From positions 8,074 through 72,073 of the forward strand of contig CAYNNZ010000004.1 of NCBI GenBank assembly GCA_964398815.1: 64,000 bases of DNA, given 5' to 3'. How positions within the stretch are numbered: the stretch's first letter is position 1; each line of letters opens with the position of its first letter. Positions 24,324 through 50,362 of this stretch are shown piece by piece. The position numbers were made by a program, and so were the translations under genes. The notes beneath the pieces were generated by a model. The model made no database searches, was not told the origin of the DNA, and saw nothing but the letters and a program-made list of their open reading frames with translations. Source of the stretch: an uncultured Candidatus Saccharibacteria bacterium. Its GTDB lineage: Bacteria; Patescibacteriota; Minisyncoccia; Phycocordibacterales; Phycocordibacteraceae.

Positions 24324-24368
24324 AACTCAATCGTCTTTATCGTTTAGTAAAAATTCGGCGCGTGAGGC

Positions 24369-24408
24369 TCCGTATGGAGGACACGATTGCTCGCATCCTC
24401 CATACGGA
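24369..24408 (-). other. 13-bp stem hairpin in the rpsD-rpoA intergenic spacer
   Basis: TCCGTATGGAGGA - 14 nt - TCCTCCATACGGA (perfect inverted repeat). Confidence 0.5.
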
Positions 24409-24420
24409 ACCCCAATGCGA

Positions 24421-35679: not shown

Positions 35680-35713
35680 ACAGGAACTATACCAACCACC
35701 AATTAGAGAGACA

Positions 35714-35753
35714 GGAGTGTTAACCTTGCGATATATCGCAAGGTTAACACTCC
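35714..35753. repeat. 40-nt perfect palindrome
   Basis: GGAGTGTTAACCTTGCGATATATCGCAAGGTTAACACTCC equals its own reverse complement. Shares GTTAA-N3-TGCGATATATCGCA-N3-TTAAC with 50327-50362. Confidence 0.95.
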
Positions 35754-35787
35754 GGTTGCGTGAGGTATCTCAATGTCTCAATGAGAG

Positions 35788-47382: not shown

Positions 47383-48480
47383 CTAGCTGTGCAGAAACAC
47401 CATCACGTCACCGTCTTTGACCTCGTAGGTCTTCCCTTCGGTGCGTATATCCCCCTTATCGCGCGCAGCGCTCCATGAGCCGTCAGCAAGCAGCTTGTCC
47501 CACGCGACCACCTCGGCGCGAATAAACTTGTCGCGGAAGTCCTCATGGATAGCAGCACCCGCGTCAGGCGCGAGCGCGCCCTGCTTCACGGTCCACGCGC
47601 GACTTTCCTTCGGTCCGGTCGTGAAGAACGTGAGGAGACCGAGCGTCTCGTATGCGCCGCGGATGAGGTCTTTAATACCGTCATCCTGTACTCCGAGCTC
47701 TGAGCGGAACATATCCTTGTCGCTGTCTGCGACATCATTCAGTTCATGCTCGGTGCGTGCGTCTATAAGAACGTAGCTTCCGCCGAGGGACTTCACATAG
47801 TCATATGCCTTTTGCGCGCGGCCATCATTCATTTCCGCGAGGTTGTGTCCACCGGACTTACCATTGAATGCGTAGAGGATCGGCTTCAACGTGAGGAGAT
47901 TGAGGGATTTTATGAGCTTCGCTTCCTCAGATGTTAGTCCCGCCGTTATGGCGAGCTTTCCGGACTCCAGTTCAGTAGCAACCTTAACCAAAGCTGCTTT
48001 CTCCTCCAGTGCTTCCTTCTTGTTCATTGCGACGTCGCGCACGAGTTTCTCGAGGCGGCGATCCACACTATCCTTGTCCGCAAGAATCAGTTCGAGATTA
48101 ATCACCTCGATATCCTGCATCGGGTCAATTTCGCCATGCACGTGCGTAATATCCGGATCCTCAAAGAAACGGACCATGTGGAGGATTGCGTCCGTCTCAC
48201 GGATGTTCGAGAGGAATTGGTTACCGAGGCCTTCGCCCTCGCTTGCTCCCTTCACCAAGCCTGCAATATCGACGAATTCAATGACTGCAGGAACGGTCTT
48301 CTCGGATTTCGAAAGCTCCGCGAGCTTATCCAGGCGATCGTCCGGCACCGTAACGACACCCACGGAGGGGTCTATGGTTGCGAATGGATAGTTCGCCACG
48401 AGTGCGTTCGCTCGTGTGAGCGCATTGAAAAGGGTCGACTTCCCGACATTGGGAAGTCCTACGATTCCTATCTTAAGCAT
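47383..48480 (-). CDS. ychF: ribosome-binding ATPase YchF
   Basis: 365 aa from MLKIGIVGLPNVGKSTLFNALT (ATG 48480); the track ORF extends spuriously to 48642. TGS-like C-terminus. Confidence 0.95.
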   Translation of the reverse strand: MLKIGIVGLPNVGKSTLFNALTRANALVANYPFATIDPSVGVVTVPDDRLDKLAELSKSEKTVPAVIEFVDIAGLVKGASEGEGLGNQFLSNIRETDAILHMVRFFEDPDITHVHGEIDPMQDIEVINLELILADKDSVDRRLEKLVRDVAMNKKEALEEKAALVKVATELESGKLAITAGLTSEEAKLIKSLNLLTLKPILYAFNGKSGGHNLAEMNDGRAQKAYDYVKSLGGSYVLIDARTEHELNDVADSDKDMFRSELGVQDDGIKDLIRGAYETLGLLTFFTTGPKESRAWTVKQGALAPDAGAAIHEDFRDKFIRAEVVAWDKLLADGSWSAARDKGDIRTEGKTYEVKDGDVMVFLHS

Positions 48481-48506
48481 TATCCCTACCTTACGGTGTT
48501 CGTCAG

Positions 48507-48735
48507 AAAAGGAAAAGGGCCGGCGCTTGCGCGTCCGGCCCAATCCAACCCTTCGTCTGGGAGAGCATAGGGTTGAGTGGCTCGGTGCTGTAGTGCGCAT
48601 GTCTCCGAGGTGCCTAGGCCTCGATGGGCACCACAGCGACAAGCCAGAGGCATCCTATACCAGCATCCTTCATGGGTCTACCTATTCAGTACCTAAACCG
48701 CACCAACTAGGTGCTTACTCACTAACGCTACACAT
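48507..48735 (-). ncRNA. candidate structured RNA (independent sRNA or ychF leader) ending in an intrinsic terminator
   Basis: Minus-sense rod-like fold. GGCTTG/CGAGCC plus GCTGTGGTG/CACTACAGC (two G-U pairs that are valid only on minus) enclose CGAGG-CCTAGGCA-CCTCG. Outer ATAGG/CCTAT. 5' hairpin GCACC-TAGTT-GGTGC. Terminator GGGCCGGaCGC-GCAA-GCGCCGGCCC plus TTTTCCTTTTC lies at 48507-48541. No Rfam-class motif recognised. Confidence 0.4.
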
Positions 48736-48874
48736 ATGACGACAGAAGAAATGAAGAAGAAGGAGGCTGATGAGGCAAAGAAGAAAGAGGAGGAAGTGGC
48801 GAAGAATTCTTCAGATAAGAAGTAAGCTCGCTCGGGCAAGCTCGCACAGAAAAGCCGCCTATGGCGGCCTTTGT

Positions 48875-48991
48875 GTATATAAAAAGAAAAGGCCCTACGT
48901 GAGGGCCTTGGGGGGTTGGGAGGTGGGATGGGGTGGTCGTGGGGTGACCGCGCCGTTGTCGGGGGGGCGTCAGCTGGCGCTCCCACCTCCC
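48875..48991 (-). ncRNA. candidate small RNA with C-rich loops
   Basis: Promoter-like TTGCAT-N17-TATAAC (49026-48998). The transcript would start at the 12-nt arm TGGGAGGTGGGA, which pairs with TCCCACCTCCCA 52 nt downstream. Inner GCGCC/GGCGC stem. C-runs in the loops. Terminator AAGGCCCT-CACGT-AGGGCCTT plus TTTCTTTTTATAT. Confidence 0.4.
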
Positions 48992-48997
48992 AGAATG

Positions 48998-49026
48998 GTT
49001 ATAACATCTCCTTGCTGATTATGCAA
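48998..49026 (-). promoter_or_regulatory. putative promoter of the C-rich sRNA candidate
   Basis: Minus-sense TTGCAT (49026-49021), 17-nt spacer, TATAAC (49003-48998). Confidence 0.35.
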
Positions 49027-49051
49027 GTATGTTTCCGGACCGAGGCGTATA

Positions 49052-49080
49052 TTGACTTTTCCCGCATTTTATGCTATTAA
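49052..49080 (+). promoter_or_regulatory. putative promoter of the 49110 gene
   Basis: TTGACT-N17-TATTAA, then GGGAG 8 nt before ATG 49110. Confidence 0.4.
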
Positions 49081-49109
49081 ATACCCAACGTCATTCTGGG
49101 AGATAGACA

Positions 49110-49508
49110 ATGACTAAGAACATTCCGTTCAAATTCACCGTTGCGTTCACCTTCCTCTTGGGCTTCGGCTTGCTTGCCTTCGCCTGCTTCCTGCAGTGGG
49201 ACATCACGGACTACCCGAATAGGGTCTATATGTCCGAGATGATCGCCCGCGGCTGGTCCGCCACTGCCGGCGCCCTGCCGGCCTCGACGACTGCCCGCTT
49301 CCCCATGCTCGGCGACGGGTATCTGGGCGTCTGCGCCCCGATCGTCTTCGCCATCATGGGCTTCGCCATGCTGGTGCTCGGCTGGCATCTCCTCGATGCC
49401 GTCCATAAGGACGACGAGGAAGAGCCGGAAGAGCCGGCGCGTGAGCCCGTGGCGACGGACGACAACGTCCGCCACATGGGTGAAGGCGCCCGCGACATCG
49501 CGGCCTAG
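49110..49508 (+). CDS. hypothetical membrane protein (132 aa)
   Basis: Two to three hydrophobic segments and an acidic C-terminal tail. Own promoter, SD and terminator. Confidence 0.5.
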   Translation: MTKNIPFKFTVAFTFLLGFGLLAFACFLQWDITDYPNRVYMSEMIARGWSATAGALPASTTARFPMLGDGYLGVCAPIVFAIMGFAMLVLGWHLLDAVHKDDEEEPEEPAREPVATDDNVRHMGEGARDIAA

Positions 49509-50326: not shown

Positions 50327-50362
50327 AAAGTTAATAGTGCGATATATCGCACTATTAACTTT
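50327..50362. repeat. 36-nt perfect palindrome
   Basis: AAAGTTAATAGTGCGATATATCGCACTATTAACTTT equals its own reverse complement. Same core and GTTAA/TTAAC flanks as 35714-35753. Confidence 0.95.

What the first reader, a model, noticed from the sequence alone, without database searches (positions are those of the whole stretch)
48507..48735. About 200-nt rod-like structured RNA ending in a terminator 26 nt upstream of the ychF start
Read on the minus strand, the region folds by hand into nested helices:
- ATAGG/CCTAT, followed by an 8x7-nt internal loop.
- GGCTTG/CGAGCC, followed by a 2x2 loop.
- GCTGTGGTG/CACTACAGC, enclosing the hairpin CGAGG-CCTAGGCA-CCTCG.
- A separate 5' hairpin GCACC-TAGTT-GGTGC.

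Two G-U pairs in these helices would be A-C mismatches on the plus strand, which supports minus-strand expression.

The region ends with GGGCCGG(A)CGC-GCAA-GCGCCGGCCC plus TTTTCCTTTTC (48507-48541). Only about 26 nt, containing an SD-like AGGG, remain before the ychF ATG at 48480. There is no room for a separate ychF promoter. ychF must therefore be read through this terminator. That is the geometry of a cis-acting leader or riboswitch, or of an sRNA co-transcribed with ychF.

An alternative pairing, GGTGCC/GGCACC, competes with the central helices. I could not match SRP, 6S, tmRNA, RNase P or T-box signature sequences.
Basis: partly seen in the sequence, partly recalled or inferred. Interest (0 to 1): 0.6.

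Follow-up and report, generated by a model that had tools for sequence, protein, structure and literature searches.

The report
Candidate small RNA upstream of ychF
The stretch holds a real, strongly folding, terminator-ended RNA of about 140 nt in a Parcubacteria genome, but it looks like a stand-alone small-RNA gene next to a leaderless ychF gene that has its own promoter, not a riboswitch or leader controlling ychF.

Summary
Only 48645-48507 (minus strand) folds better than chance (z -5.6). The 5' third, 48740-48646, does not (z +0.17).

A -10-like TAAGGT sits 7 nt before the ychF ATG, and there is no conserved Shine-Dalgarno. It recurs in every close relative whose upstream region was read. 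In 54 of 76 Patescibacteria-like ychF loci a TAnnnT ends 5-9 nt before the start, against 12 of 76 controls. ychF is therefore probably leaderless, with its own promoter downstream of the terminator.

No Rfam family matches. No sequence is conserved in relatives and no antiterminator exists, so a riboswitch or attenuator is unlikely.

All relatives at 82-88% YchF identity, and L003 at 69%, carry one or two units at this position. Each unit is a -35/-10 promoter, about 6 nt, a long hairpin starting at +1, then a terminator abutting the ychF -10. The window has two:
- A, 49026-48881, with C-rich loops.
- B, the finding: TAGACC-17-TAGGAT-6-G48645.

Best reading: B is an independently transcribed small RNA of unknown target, from an undescribed fast-evolving family. 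Transcription is inferred, not shown. Interest is modest.

The parts
48675..48680 (-). -35-like hexamer TAGACC of the putative promoter of RNA B (4 of 6 matches to TTGACA), 17 nt upstream of the -10-like box
   Evidence: Sequence read. The homologous position in L003 is a perfect TTGACA with the same 17-nt spacing. The hexamer is below the threshold of the consensus scan.
48652..48657 (-). -10-like hexamer TAGGAT (TAnnnT), 6 nt upstream of the first base of the long hairpin
   Evidence: The block GGTATAGGATGCC is identical in L003 (blast hit at 2482-2495). The geometry of -10, 6 nt, then hairpin base recurs in L172, L174, L177, L179, L171b, L180, L181 and window A.
48579..48645 (-). Long hairpin of RNA B, with predicted +1 at G48645. 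Helices are GGCUUG/CGAGCC, a 2x2 loop, GCUGUGGUG/CACUACAGC, and an apical CGAGG-loop-CCUCG.
   Evidence: -34.6 kcal/mol alone, with pair probabilities 0.98-1.0 for the first pair of each helix. It contains two G-U pairs. The L170 SNP at 48639 falls in the 2x2 internal loop.
48545..48576 (-). Second hairpin (UCAACCCU.../...AGGGUUGG), whose loop region carries the C/U-rich stretch CUCUCCCAG
   Evidence: MFE and centroid folds. The L170 SNP G48545A turns a U-G pair into U-A. A similar ACCCAAC...GUUGGGAUU hairpin follows the long hairpin in the second unit of L181.
48507..48541 (-). Intrinsic terminator: stem-loop 48541-48517 (-21.1 kcal/mol) plus U-tract 48516-48507. The U-tract overlaps the -35 region of the ychF promoter.
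   Evidence: (terminator-only resemblance to sRNA 3' ends). A T-run is present only on the minus strand.
48488..48493 (-). -10-like box TAAGGT of ychF, 7 nt before the ATG at 48480. This is the signature of a leaderless mRNA.
   Evidence: Searches show conservation in relatives. One search gives 54 of 76 loci against 12 of 76 controls, and no SD core in 0 of 76.
47383..48480 (-). ychF (365 aa; MMR_HSR1 and YchF-GTPase_C domains)
48646..48735 (-). 5' part of the reported interval: spacer and putative promoter, probably not part of the RNA
   Evidence: z +0.17 for 48740-48646. It contains the -35-like and -10-like boxes.
48881..49026 (-). Neighbouring unit A. Promoter TTGCAT (49026-49021), 17 nt, TATAAC (49003-48998), 6 nt, +1 G48991. 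Hairpin 48991-48918 with C-rich loops. Terminator 48909-48889 plus T-run.
   Evidence: z -6.05. By eye it resembles the L178 and L171a units in sequence (GGGTGG..GCTG.CCCCCCC.GAC).
48854..48868 (-). Extra terminator-like hairpin between units A and B (GCCGCCATAGGCGGC plus TTTTCTGTG)

Best explanation
Region 48645-48507 (minus strand) is a small, independently transcribed non-coding RNA gene, 'unit B', about 139 nt long.

**How it is built**
- A weak sigma-70-type promoter (TAGACC, 17 nt, TAGGAT) places +1 at G48645, the first base of a 67-nt hairpin.
- A second hairpin follows, with a C/U-rich loop (CUCUCCCAG).
- An intrinsic terminator ends the transcript at about 48510.

**Relation to ychF**
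- ychF is not read through this terminator. It is transcribed as a leaderless mRNA from its own promoter, whose -10 (TAAGGT) lies 7 nt before the ATG.
- The -35 region of that promoter coincides with the terminator's T-run.
- The terminator therefore also insulates the ychF promoter from upstream transcription.

**Context**
- B is the ychF-proximal one of two tandem units of the same design in this window. The other is A, at 49026-48881.
- This is the local version of a fast-evolving, positionally conserved arrangement found upstream of ychF in related Paceibacteria.

**Status of each step**
- Shown: the fold, the terminator, the absence of known-family matches and of coding signal, and the conserved promoter/hairpin/terminator/-10 geometry in relatives.
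- Inferred: that the promoters fire, that +1 is at 48645, and that ychF is leaderless.
- Speculative: that the RNA acts in trans by pairing its exposed C/U-rich loop with purine-rich (Shine-Dalgarno-like) mRNA sites, as RsaE/RoxS-type sRNAs do.
For: **Fold**
- z -5.59 on the minus strand against -3.61 on the plus strand. There are two G-U pairs, and a T-run only on the minus strand.

**No known family, no coding signal**
- No Rfam family reaches gathering score or E<=10, apart from terminator look-alikes.
- None is found in 11 related loci either.
- No Pfam hit for any overlapping ORF.

**Conserved architecture in relatives**
- L001, L171 (two units), L172, L174, L175, L176, L177, L178, L179, L180, L181 (two units) and L003 all carry the same architecture. 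It is a hairpin of about 60-95 nt with a 10-18 bp basal stem, then a terminator, then a TAnnnT box 6-7 nt before the ychF ATG. In L177 that box precedes a duplicated ychF 5' fragment rather than the real start.
- Each unit has z between -3.3 and -7.4.

**Promoters in front of the hairpins**
- TTGCRA/TTGCAC/TTGACA, 16-17 nt, TAnnnT, 6 nt, then the hairpin base.
- In window A this promoter lies outside any coding sequence, so it is not a by-product of the C-terminal codons of the Flavodoxin_2 gene.
- L003 has TTGACA-17-TAGGAT with the same 13-nt block GGTATAGGATGCC as B.

**Covariation in the relatives' hairpins**
- The basal five pairs are kept in 9 of 9 hairpins.
- Three of those pairs show changes on both sides.
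- An invariant CAC lies at the 3' end of the stem.

**Leaderless ychF**
- 54 of 76 loci against 12 of 76 controls have TAnnnT 5-9 nt before the start. SD cores are 0 of 76 against 35 of 76.
- Other genes in the window show the same pattern: TATACT, 7 nt, ATG 41320; TATAGT, 6 nt, ATG 35679; TATACT, 9 nt, ATG 50637.

**No switch**
- With the terminator's 3' arm absent, its 5' arm stays essentially unpaired. The best upstream duplex is -10.9 kcal/mol, against -34.6 for the hairpin it would have to open.

**Near-identical strain**
- Only 3 SNPs fall in the 351 nt upstream of ychF, against 42 in the 1098-nt ychF CDS.
- All three are structure-neutral or structure-improving.
Against: - No transcript data exist. 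Promoter, +1 and leaderless status all rest on sequence.
- B's promoter is weak: 8 of 12 consensus matches, below the threshold of the scan.
- B itself has no detectable homologue outside its own species. It is 100% identical in 9 contigs and has 3 SNPs in a tenth. No covariation test is therefore possible on B.
- B lacks the GUYGR/YCRAC base sequence of the relatives' main type and lacks their C-runs. Its membership of that family rests on position and design only.
- The low SNP density may reflect a recombination block, because the SNPs in ychF are clustered.
- Hairpin-plus-terminator arrangements could be selected simply as terminators or insulators, with no RNA function.
- A strict terminator 8-60 nt before ychF was found in only 14 of 75 Patescibacteria-like loci. 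The arrangement is clade-limited.
Confidence: 0.55

Rival explanations
1. Insulator or terminator block with no RNA function. The hairpins and terminator exist only to stop upstream transcription (from unit A or stray promoters) before the tightly packed leaderless ychF promoter. Alternatively, B is a decaying duplicate of unit A. Any short transcript made is a by-product.
For: - The terminator T-run overlaps the ychF -35 region in the window and in the relatives.
- There are three minus-strand terminators in series within 400 nt.
- The hairpin sequences turn over completely between relatives.
- B has no C-rich loops and only a weak promoter.
- Comparable hairpin stabilities occur at ordinary terminators in the window.
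Against: - A terminator alone would be enough for insulation. That does not explain why a 67-95-nt hairpin with a promoter placed exactly 6 nt before its base is kept in nearly all relatives.
- It does not explain why the basal stem covaries.
- In B, two terminators already lie upstream (48909-48889 and 48868-48854), so little transcription is left to stop.
Confidence: 0.25
2. One reading: a cis-acting leader (riboswitch, attenuator or protein-binding leader). ychF is transcribed from a promoter upstream of the structure, and expression depends on conditional read-through of the terminator at 48541-48507.
For: - The terminator is only 26 nt from the ATG.
- The structure is very stable.
- Some read-through from the upstream promoter cannot be excluded.
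Against: - A conserved -10 box lies between the terminator and the ATG, and there is no conserved SD.
- No sequence conservation of any putative aptamer exists at 84-88% YchF identity.
- There is no Rfam match.
- There is no antiterminator or alternative fold. The alternative GGUGCC/GGCACC pairing has probability about 0.
- L002 (77% YchF identity) lacks the structure altogether. L172, L175 and L180 have only one unrelated-sequence unit.
Confidence: 0.07
3. B is the 3' part of a longer transcript that starts further upstream (around 48850-48700). That transcript would include the C/U-rich tract 48830-48745, or B would be antisense or UTR sequence related to the 29-aa plus-strand ORF called at 48736-48825.
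For: - Gene callers report the 29-aa ORF in all ten contigs that reach it (nine with the identical YchF, plus L170).
- A weak TTGCCC-16-TATCTG lies near 48845-48815.
- The tract contains several CCUCC motifs.
Against: - The 29-aa ORF has no SD, no good -10 and no Pfam hit, and its composition is low-complexity K/E.
- 48740-48646 shows no structure.
- Only 8 of 12 consensus matches support the alternative promoter, and its -10 (TATCTG) lacks the final T.
- The promoter-to-hairpin geometry of B matches that of the other units.
Confidence: 0.08
4. A DNA-level element: an inverted-repeat protein-binding site, a recombination site (attC-like) or a miniature mobile element inserted upstream of ychF.
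For: - The window has about 1 kb more DNA between Flavodoxin_2 and ychF than the relatives do.
- One relative's hairpin (L172) has GTTGAGG...CCTCAAC ends.
Against: - B is not repeated anywhere in the window or in 180 loci.
- The core order is the reverse of attC (RYYYAAC...GTTRRRY).
- G-U pairs, the strand-asymmetric z-score and the one-strand T-run point to RNA.
- No recombinase is nearby.
Confidence: 0.04

Closest known systems
Terminator-ended trans-acting sRNAs with C-rich loops (RsaE/RoxS of Firmicutes; PMC6158497, PMC8216469)
   Same: - Own promoter, about 100-140 nt, and a few hairpins, the last being an intrinsic terminator.
- Unpaired C-rich motifs are complementary to purine-rich ribosome-binding sites. 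They are very clear in unit A and in the relatives. In B there is only CUCUCCCAG.
   Different: - No sequence or covariance-model similarity to any Rfam family, which would include the Rfam-held model(s) for this family.
- The phylum is different.
- No target, chaperone or expression data exist.
- Sequence turnover between close relatives is far faster than for RsaE.
Riboswitch or transcription-attenuation leaders
   Same: A structured RNA followed by an intrinsic terminator immediately upstream of a coding gene.
   Different: - No conserved aptamer.
- No antiterminator.
- A conserved promoter -10 lies between the terminator and the start codon.
- The downstream gene lacks an SD and looks leaderless.
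Hairpin-shaped housekeeping RNAs (4.5S/SRP RNA, 6S RNA)
   Same: - A single long hairpin whose 5' and 3' ends pair.
- Its own promoter and terminator.
- A short ACC(C) tail after the stem in the relatives' units (from my memory of the E. coli 4.5S 3' end, not tested).
- Conserved synteny.
   Different: - No match to the Rfam SRP or 6S models.
- The apical region is not conserved at all between relatives. The SRP domain IV motif (GGAA...AGCAGC), recalled from memory, was not seen by eye.
- The hairpins are about half the length of any 6S RNA.
Leaderless mRNA promoters (common in Actinobacteria and Deinococcus; own knowledge)
   Same: TAnnnT -10 box 6-9 nt before the start codon, and no SD. This applies to ychF here, not to the RNA itself.
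   Different: I found no published description of this for Patescibacteria. No TSS map is available.

Membership tests
Riboswitch / cis-regulatory leader of ychF | The structure lies inside the 5' UTR of the regulated gene, with no promoter between it and the start codon | tested here: not met
   TAAGGT lies 7 nt before the ATG. It is conserved in 12 relatives, and 54 of 76 Patescibacteria-like loci have TAnnnT 5-9 nt before the start, against 12 of 76 controls. This is sequence inference, with no TSS data.
Riboswitch / cis-regulatory leader of ychF | Ligand- or factor-binding domain conserved in sequence and structure across species | tested here: not met
   blastn and nhmmer find no similarity in 180 loci, including relatives at 84-88% YchF identity. 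There are no Rfam hits.
Riboswitch / cis-regulatory leader of ychF | Expression platform with mutually exclusive terminator and antiterminator folds | tested here: not met
   Without its 3' arm, the terminator's 5' arm stays essentially unpaired. The best competing duplex is -10.9 kcal/mol, against the -34.6 kcal/mol hairpin it must open. The alternative GGUGCC/GGCACC pairing has probability about 0.
Intrinsic (Rho-independent) terminator | GC-rich stem-loop directly followed by a U-tract on the transcribed strand | tested here: met
   Stem-loop 48541-48517 is -21.1 kcal/mol, followed by UUUUCCUUUU. Its 3' end resembles sRNA terminators in cmscan.
Stand-alone bacterial sRNA gene | Own promoter with +1 at or near the 5' hairpin | tested here: inconclusive
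   TAGACC-17-TAGGAT-6-G48645 has 8 of 12 consensus matches and is below the threshold. It is supported by L003's TTGACA-17-TAGGAT and by the same geometry in other units. No transcript data exist.
Stand-alone bacterial sRNA gene | Non-coding, intergenic, and folds better than chance | tested here: met
   No Pfam hit for overlapping ORFs. z -5.59.
Stand-alone bacterial sRNA gene | A discrete transcript is detected | not testable with these tools
   No RNA-seq or metatranscriptome access.
ychF-upstream hairpin units of related Paceibacteria (undescribed; defined here) | Position and design: promoter, 6 nt, long hairpin, terminator abutting the ychF -10 | tested here: met
ychF-upstream hairpin units of related Paceibacteria (undescribed; defined here) | Basal stem 5'-GUYGR...YCRAC-3' followed by AC(C), the main type in relatives | tested here: not met
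   B has GGCUUG...CGAGCC followed by AC. Only the trailing AC agrees.
ychF-upstream hairpin units of related Paceibacteria (undescribed; defined here) | Runs of C in internal or apical loops | tested here: not met
   B's loops are CCUAGGCA, CCCAU and CUCUCCCAG, with no C-run of 5 or more. Unit A and the relatives have them.
Known housekeeping RNAs (SRP, 6S, tmRNA, RNase P, T-box) | Score above the Rfam gathering threshold | tested here: not met
   cmscan on the window at gathering threshold, and on 48350-49150 at E<=10.

The most novel reading that the evidence does not exclude
A fast-evolving family of promoter-to-terminator hairpin RNAs is physically coupled to the leaderless ychF gene across Paceibacteria.

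It could be functionally tied to ychF in one of two ways:
- It sets ychF transcription through promoter occlusion or terminator read-through.
- It acts together with YchF, which inhibits leaderless-mRNA translation in E. coli (PMC8138138). That would form a regulatory loop around leaderless translation in these minimal cells.

Unit B would be the ychF-proximal paralogue in this species.
Probability: 0.12. Interest if true: 0.65.

Novelty: new member of a known kind. Interest (0 to 1): 0.33.

Why it matters
I found no published description of small RNAs or transcription-unit architecture in Candidate Phyla Radiation bacteria, which are mostly uncultured and have tiny genomes. If the reading is right, it yields three things:
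- A concrete, testable candidate sRNA locus, in fact two tandem ones.
- Sequence-based evidence that ychF, and apparently other genes, are expressed as leaderless mRNAs in Patescibacteria.
- An example of extreme packing, where an sRNA terminator's T-run doubles as the -35 region of the next promoter.

It also carries a caution for genome scans. In lineages that use leaderless mRNAs, 'a terminator right before a start codon' does not imply an attenuator. None of this is surprising in kind, and nothing here opens a long-standing question.

Tried and rejected
- **Rfam.** Gathering threshold on the whole window; E<=10 on 48350-49150; gathering on 11 related loci. Only tRNAs and terminator look-alikes came back.
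- **Sequence searches.** blastn and nhmmer of the region against all fetched loci and against the window itself found no homologue and no repeat.
- **Collection scans.** Genome and metagenome scans with YchF, and 12 contig look-ups, produced no relative closer than 99% or 88% that varies within B. B-specific covariation could not be tested.
- **Alignments.** MAFFT alignments of the units were too poor in the variable interior to build a covariance model, so none was built. Only the basal stem could be scored.
- **Pattern scan.** My own scan for 'long stem plus terminator' was too permissive (339 of 1314 terminators) and was discarded.
- **Strict terminator count.** It showed the arrangement is clade-limited: 14 of 75 loci.
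- **Coding potential.** The overlapping ORFs (55, 97, 107 and 29 aa) have no Pfam hit. The two L170 SNPs inside the 55-aa frame, one synonymous and one not, give no coding signal.
- **SRP RNA and 6S RNA.** Considered because of the hairpin shape, the ACCC tail and the synteny. Rejected because there is no Rfam hit, the apex is not conserved, and the hairpins are too short for 6S.
- **attC-like site.** Rejected because the core order is reversed and there are no other copies.
- **SECIS or recoding hairpin after the Flavodoxin_2 stop.** Rejected because the stop codons differ between relatives.
Full report
**Context.** The window comes from a Parcubacteria/Paceibacteria (Candidate Phyla Radiation) genome. 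The best genome matches to its YchF are Parcubacteria and Patescibacteria MAGs at 84%, 77% and 69% identity. ychF lies on the minus strand at 48480-47383 and begins MLKIGIVGLPNVGKST.

**1. The observation**

So is the terminator, at 48541-48517 with T-run 48516-48507. The 26-nt gap to the ATG is also correct.

With the tool's shuffling control, 48645-48507 folds at -71 kcal/mol. Its z-score is -5.59, and 0 of 200 shuffles fold as well. The plus strand reaches only z -3.61.

The first base pair of each of the three nested helices of the central hairpin has probability 0.98-1.0. The alternative GGUGCC/GGCACC pairing has probability about 0.

The 5' third of the reported interval, 48740-48646, includes the GCACC-TAGTT-GGTGC hairpin. 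It is not structured beyond chance: z +0.17.

The outermost ATAGG/CCTAT helix is absent from the centroid. It overlaps by 2 nt, and so competes with, a stronger 8-bp hairpin at 48576-48545. The object is therefore three consecutive hairpins of about 139 nt, not a 200-nt rod.

In a scan of all 100-nt windows on both strands, the hairpin ranks 80th and the terminator 69th of 6390. That is strong, but similar to ordinary terminators in this genome.

**2. Known families**

Rfam at gathering threshold finds only three tRNAs in the window. A permissive scan of 48350-49150 finds only weak resemblances to the terminator ends of unrelated sRNAs. Eleven related loci give nothing. ORFs overlapping the region have no Pfam hit.

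**3. Is there room for a ychF promoter?**

Yes. The 26 nt contain TAAGGT (48493-48488), followed by 7 nt and the ATG.

The same box appears 6-7 nt before the ATG in L001, L002, L003, L171, L172, L174-L176 and L178-L181, as TAAGGT, TAAGCT, TACAGT, TAGTTT or TACGTT. In L177 it sits 6 nt before a duplicated fragment of the ychF 5' end.

| Group (non-redundant ychF loci) | TAnnnT ending 5-9 nt before start | SD core present |
|---|---|---|
| Patescibacteria-like, 76 loci | 54 | 0 |
| Controls, mostly Firmicutes, 76 loci | 12 | 35 |

The Patescibacteria-like counts peak sharply at 6-9 nt: 17, 16, 14 and 11, against a background of about 2 per offset.

Other genes in the window show the same pattern:
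- TATACT, 7 nt, ATG 41320.
- TATAGT, 6 nt, ATG 35679.
- TATACT, 9 nt, ATG 50637.

I conclude, by inference from sequence, that ychF is a leaderless mRNA. Its promoter is squeezed between the terminator's T-run (its -35 region) and the start codon.

As background, E. coli YchF inhibits leaderless-mRNA translation via IF3 (PMC8138138). A leaderless ychF is therefore an intriguing detail, but I have no evidence of a loop.

**4. Relatives**

Nine contigs from different samples encode the identical YchF and are 100% identical over the part of the upstream 640 nt that each contains; the shortest covers about 380 nt.

A 99% relative, L170, has 62 SNPs in 2552 nt:
- 42 fall in the 1098-nt ychF CDS.
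- 3 fall in the 351 upstream nt. A48686T lies upstream of the promoter. T48639C lies in the 2x2 internal loop. G48545A turns a U-G pair into U-A.

The SNPs in ychF are clustered, so a recombination block could explain the low upstream density.

Beyond the species there is no sequence similarity, but there is a striking conservation of design. In L001, L171, L172, L174-L181 (82-88% YchF identity) and L003 (69%), the space before ychF holds one or two units. The upstream gene is usually a Flavodoxin_2 gene.

Each unit consists of:
- a hairpin of about 60-95 nt with a 10-18-bp basal stem;
- a short linker, often AC(CC);
- an intrinsic terminator;
- then, after the ychF-proximal unit, the ychF -10 box.

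Each unit folds with z between -3.3 and -7.4. More distant Paceibacteria (L027, L028, L031, L033; 55-57% identity) show the same arrangement. L002 lacks it. A strict terminator 8-60 nt before ychF is found in only 14 of 75 Patescibacteria-like loci, against 0 of 74 controls. The arrangement is therefore clade-limited.

**5. The units have their own promoters**

Immediately upstream of the hairpin base there is a -35/-10 pair with canonical spacing. The -10 ends about 6 nt before the first hairpin base.

| Unit | Promoter and spacing to hairpin base |
|---|---|
| L172 | TTGCGA-17-TTTAGT-6-G |
| L175 | TTGCAA-17-GAATAT-6-G |
| L177 | TTGCGA-17-TACAAT-6-G |
| L179 | TTGCAC-16-TATAGT-6-G |
| L180 | TTGCGA-17-TACGGT-6-G |
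| L181, first unit | TTGACC-17-TATATT-6-G |
| L181, second unit | TTGACA-16-TAGATT-6 |
| L174 | TATAGT-6-G |
| L171b | TATAGT-6-G |

In several relatives the -35 lies in the last codons of the Flavodoxin_2 gene, so coding constraint could mimic it. In the window's unit A, however, the promoter TTGCAT-17-TATAAC-6-G48991 lies in non-coding DNA, because an opposite-strand 132-aa ORF separates it from the Flavodoxin_2 gene. The promoter is therefore kept for its own sake.

An RNAalifold run on nine hairpins of the main type shows that the five basal pairs are kept in 9 of 9. Three of them have changes on both sides, and an invariant CAC lies at the 3' end of the stem.

**6. The finding in this frame**

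The window has two such units on the minus strand.

Unit A (49026-48881) has C-rich loops (CGCCCCCCCGA, CACCCCAC). By eye it is sequence-similar to the L178 and L171a units. It looks like the orthologue of the relatives' element.

Unit B is the finding:
- -35-like TAGACC (48680-48675), then 17 nt.
- -10-like TAGGAT (48657-48652), then 6 nt.
- G48645, the first base of the long hairpin.
- A second hairpin.
- The terminator.

L003 has TTGACA-17-TAGGAT with the identical block GGTATAGGATGCC, which supports the promoter reading.

B's promoter is nevertheless weak, at 8 of 12 consensus matches, and is not reported by the scan. B lacks the GUYGR/YCRAC base and the C-runs of the other units. Its kinship with them is by position and design only. 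L171 and L181 also have two tandem units, so a two-unit arrangement is not unique to the window.

**7. Mechanism**

No antiterminator is available. With the terminator's 3' arm absent, its 5' arm stays essentially unpaired. The best competing duplex is -10.9 kcal/mol and would require opening a -34.6 kcal/mol hairpin. Together with the lack of any conserved aptamer, this makes a riboswitch or attenuator unlikely.

The most economical reading is a short primary transcript. It runs from +1 at the base of a protective 5' hairpin to an efficient terminator. That makes it a stand-alone small RNA. Its terminator additionally shields the leaderless ychF promoter.

What the RNA does is unknown. The only exposed low-complexity motif in B is CUCUCCCAG, in the second hairpin. 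Pairing with purine-rich ribosome-binding sites, as C-rich sRNAs such as RsaE/RoxS do (PMC6158497, PMC8216469), is a plausible but untested guess.

The main rival is that the units are selected only as insulators, or are decaying duplicates.

**8. Novelty and score**

The kind (sRNA gene, intrinsic terminator, leaderless promoter) is known. The family is not in Rfam, and I found no literature on it. I file it as a new member of a known kind, of modest interest.

Noticed in passing
window 49026-48881 (minus strand): A second candidate sRNA, unit A. It has promoter TTGCAT-17-TATAAC, 6 nt, +1 G48991; a 74-nt hairpin with C-rich loops (CGCCCCCCCGA, CACCCCAC); AACCCCCC; then terminator AAGGCCC...GGGCCTT plus a T-run. 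z is -6.05. By eye it resembles the L178 and L171a units and looks like the true orthologue of the relatives' ychF-upstream element.
   Followed up: partly
window 48493-48480, and ychF starts in loci L001-L181: ychF appears to be leaderless in Patescibacteria. A TAnnnT box ends 5-9 nt before the start codon in 54 of 76 loci, with no SD core in any. Controls give 12 of 76, with 35 of 76 carrying an SD core. YchF is itself reported to inhibit leaderless-mRNA translation in E. coli (PMC8138138).
   Followed up: yes
window ATG 41320, 35679 and 50637 (minus strand): Other genes show the same leaderless signature directly after a terminator or hairpin: TATACT 41333-41328, TATAGT 35691-35686 and TATACT 50652-50647.
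   Followed up: partly
window 48868-48854 and 48830-48745: An orphan terminator-like hairpin lies between units A and B. It is followed by a C/U-rich tract with several CCUCC motifs. On the plus strand this tract is called as a 29-aa K/E-rich ORF (48736-48825) in all ten contigs that reach it. That ORF has no SD, no convincing -10 and no Pfam hit.
   Followed up: partly
window 49650-49572 (minus strand): Directly after the Flavodoxin_2 gene stop (49688) there is a 39-nt hairpin plus a 13-bp terminator. It looks like a third hairpin-plus-terminator unit, but without a recognisable promoter. Compared with relatives, about 1 kb has been inserted between this gene and ychF, including a 132-aa plus-strand ORF at 49110-49508.
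   Followed up: partly
window 20314-20063 (minus strand): A promoter-like TTGACA-N15-TTAATG is followed by about 200 nt of strongly folding sequence, ahead of a 109-aa ORF with no Pfam hit that precedes grpE. It might be a heat-shock operon leader. It has no Rfam hit at gathering threshold.
   Followed up: no
window 35711-35756, 24363-24414, 50327-50362: Unusually long palindromes or hairpins, with arms of 23, 24 and 19 nt (96%, 83% and 100% complementary). The first two are the most stable local folds in the window.
   Followed up: no
L177 about 355-430: The ychF promoter and first codons seem to be duplicated (TAAGGT-agagca-ATGCTTCAAATCG). They are followed by an extra 10-bp hairpin before the real ychF start. 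This suggests a small insertion with duplication at the promoter.
   Followed up: no
L179 1115-1500; L003 2455-2975; L181 250-480: These relatives carry an additional good promoter (TTGACA-16-TACTAT; TTGACA-17-TAGGAT; TTGACC-17-TATATT). It is followed by 150-480 nt of structured, apparently non-coding sequence ending in a terminator, upstream of ychF. L179 and L003 gave no Rfam match at gathering threshold; L181 was not scanned.
   Followed up: partly
L170 versus window 48831-46280: SNPs between the two strains are strongly clustered. For example, 18 fall in 48445-48223 and none in 48222-47932. This suggests recombination mosaicism in this population.
   Followed up: no
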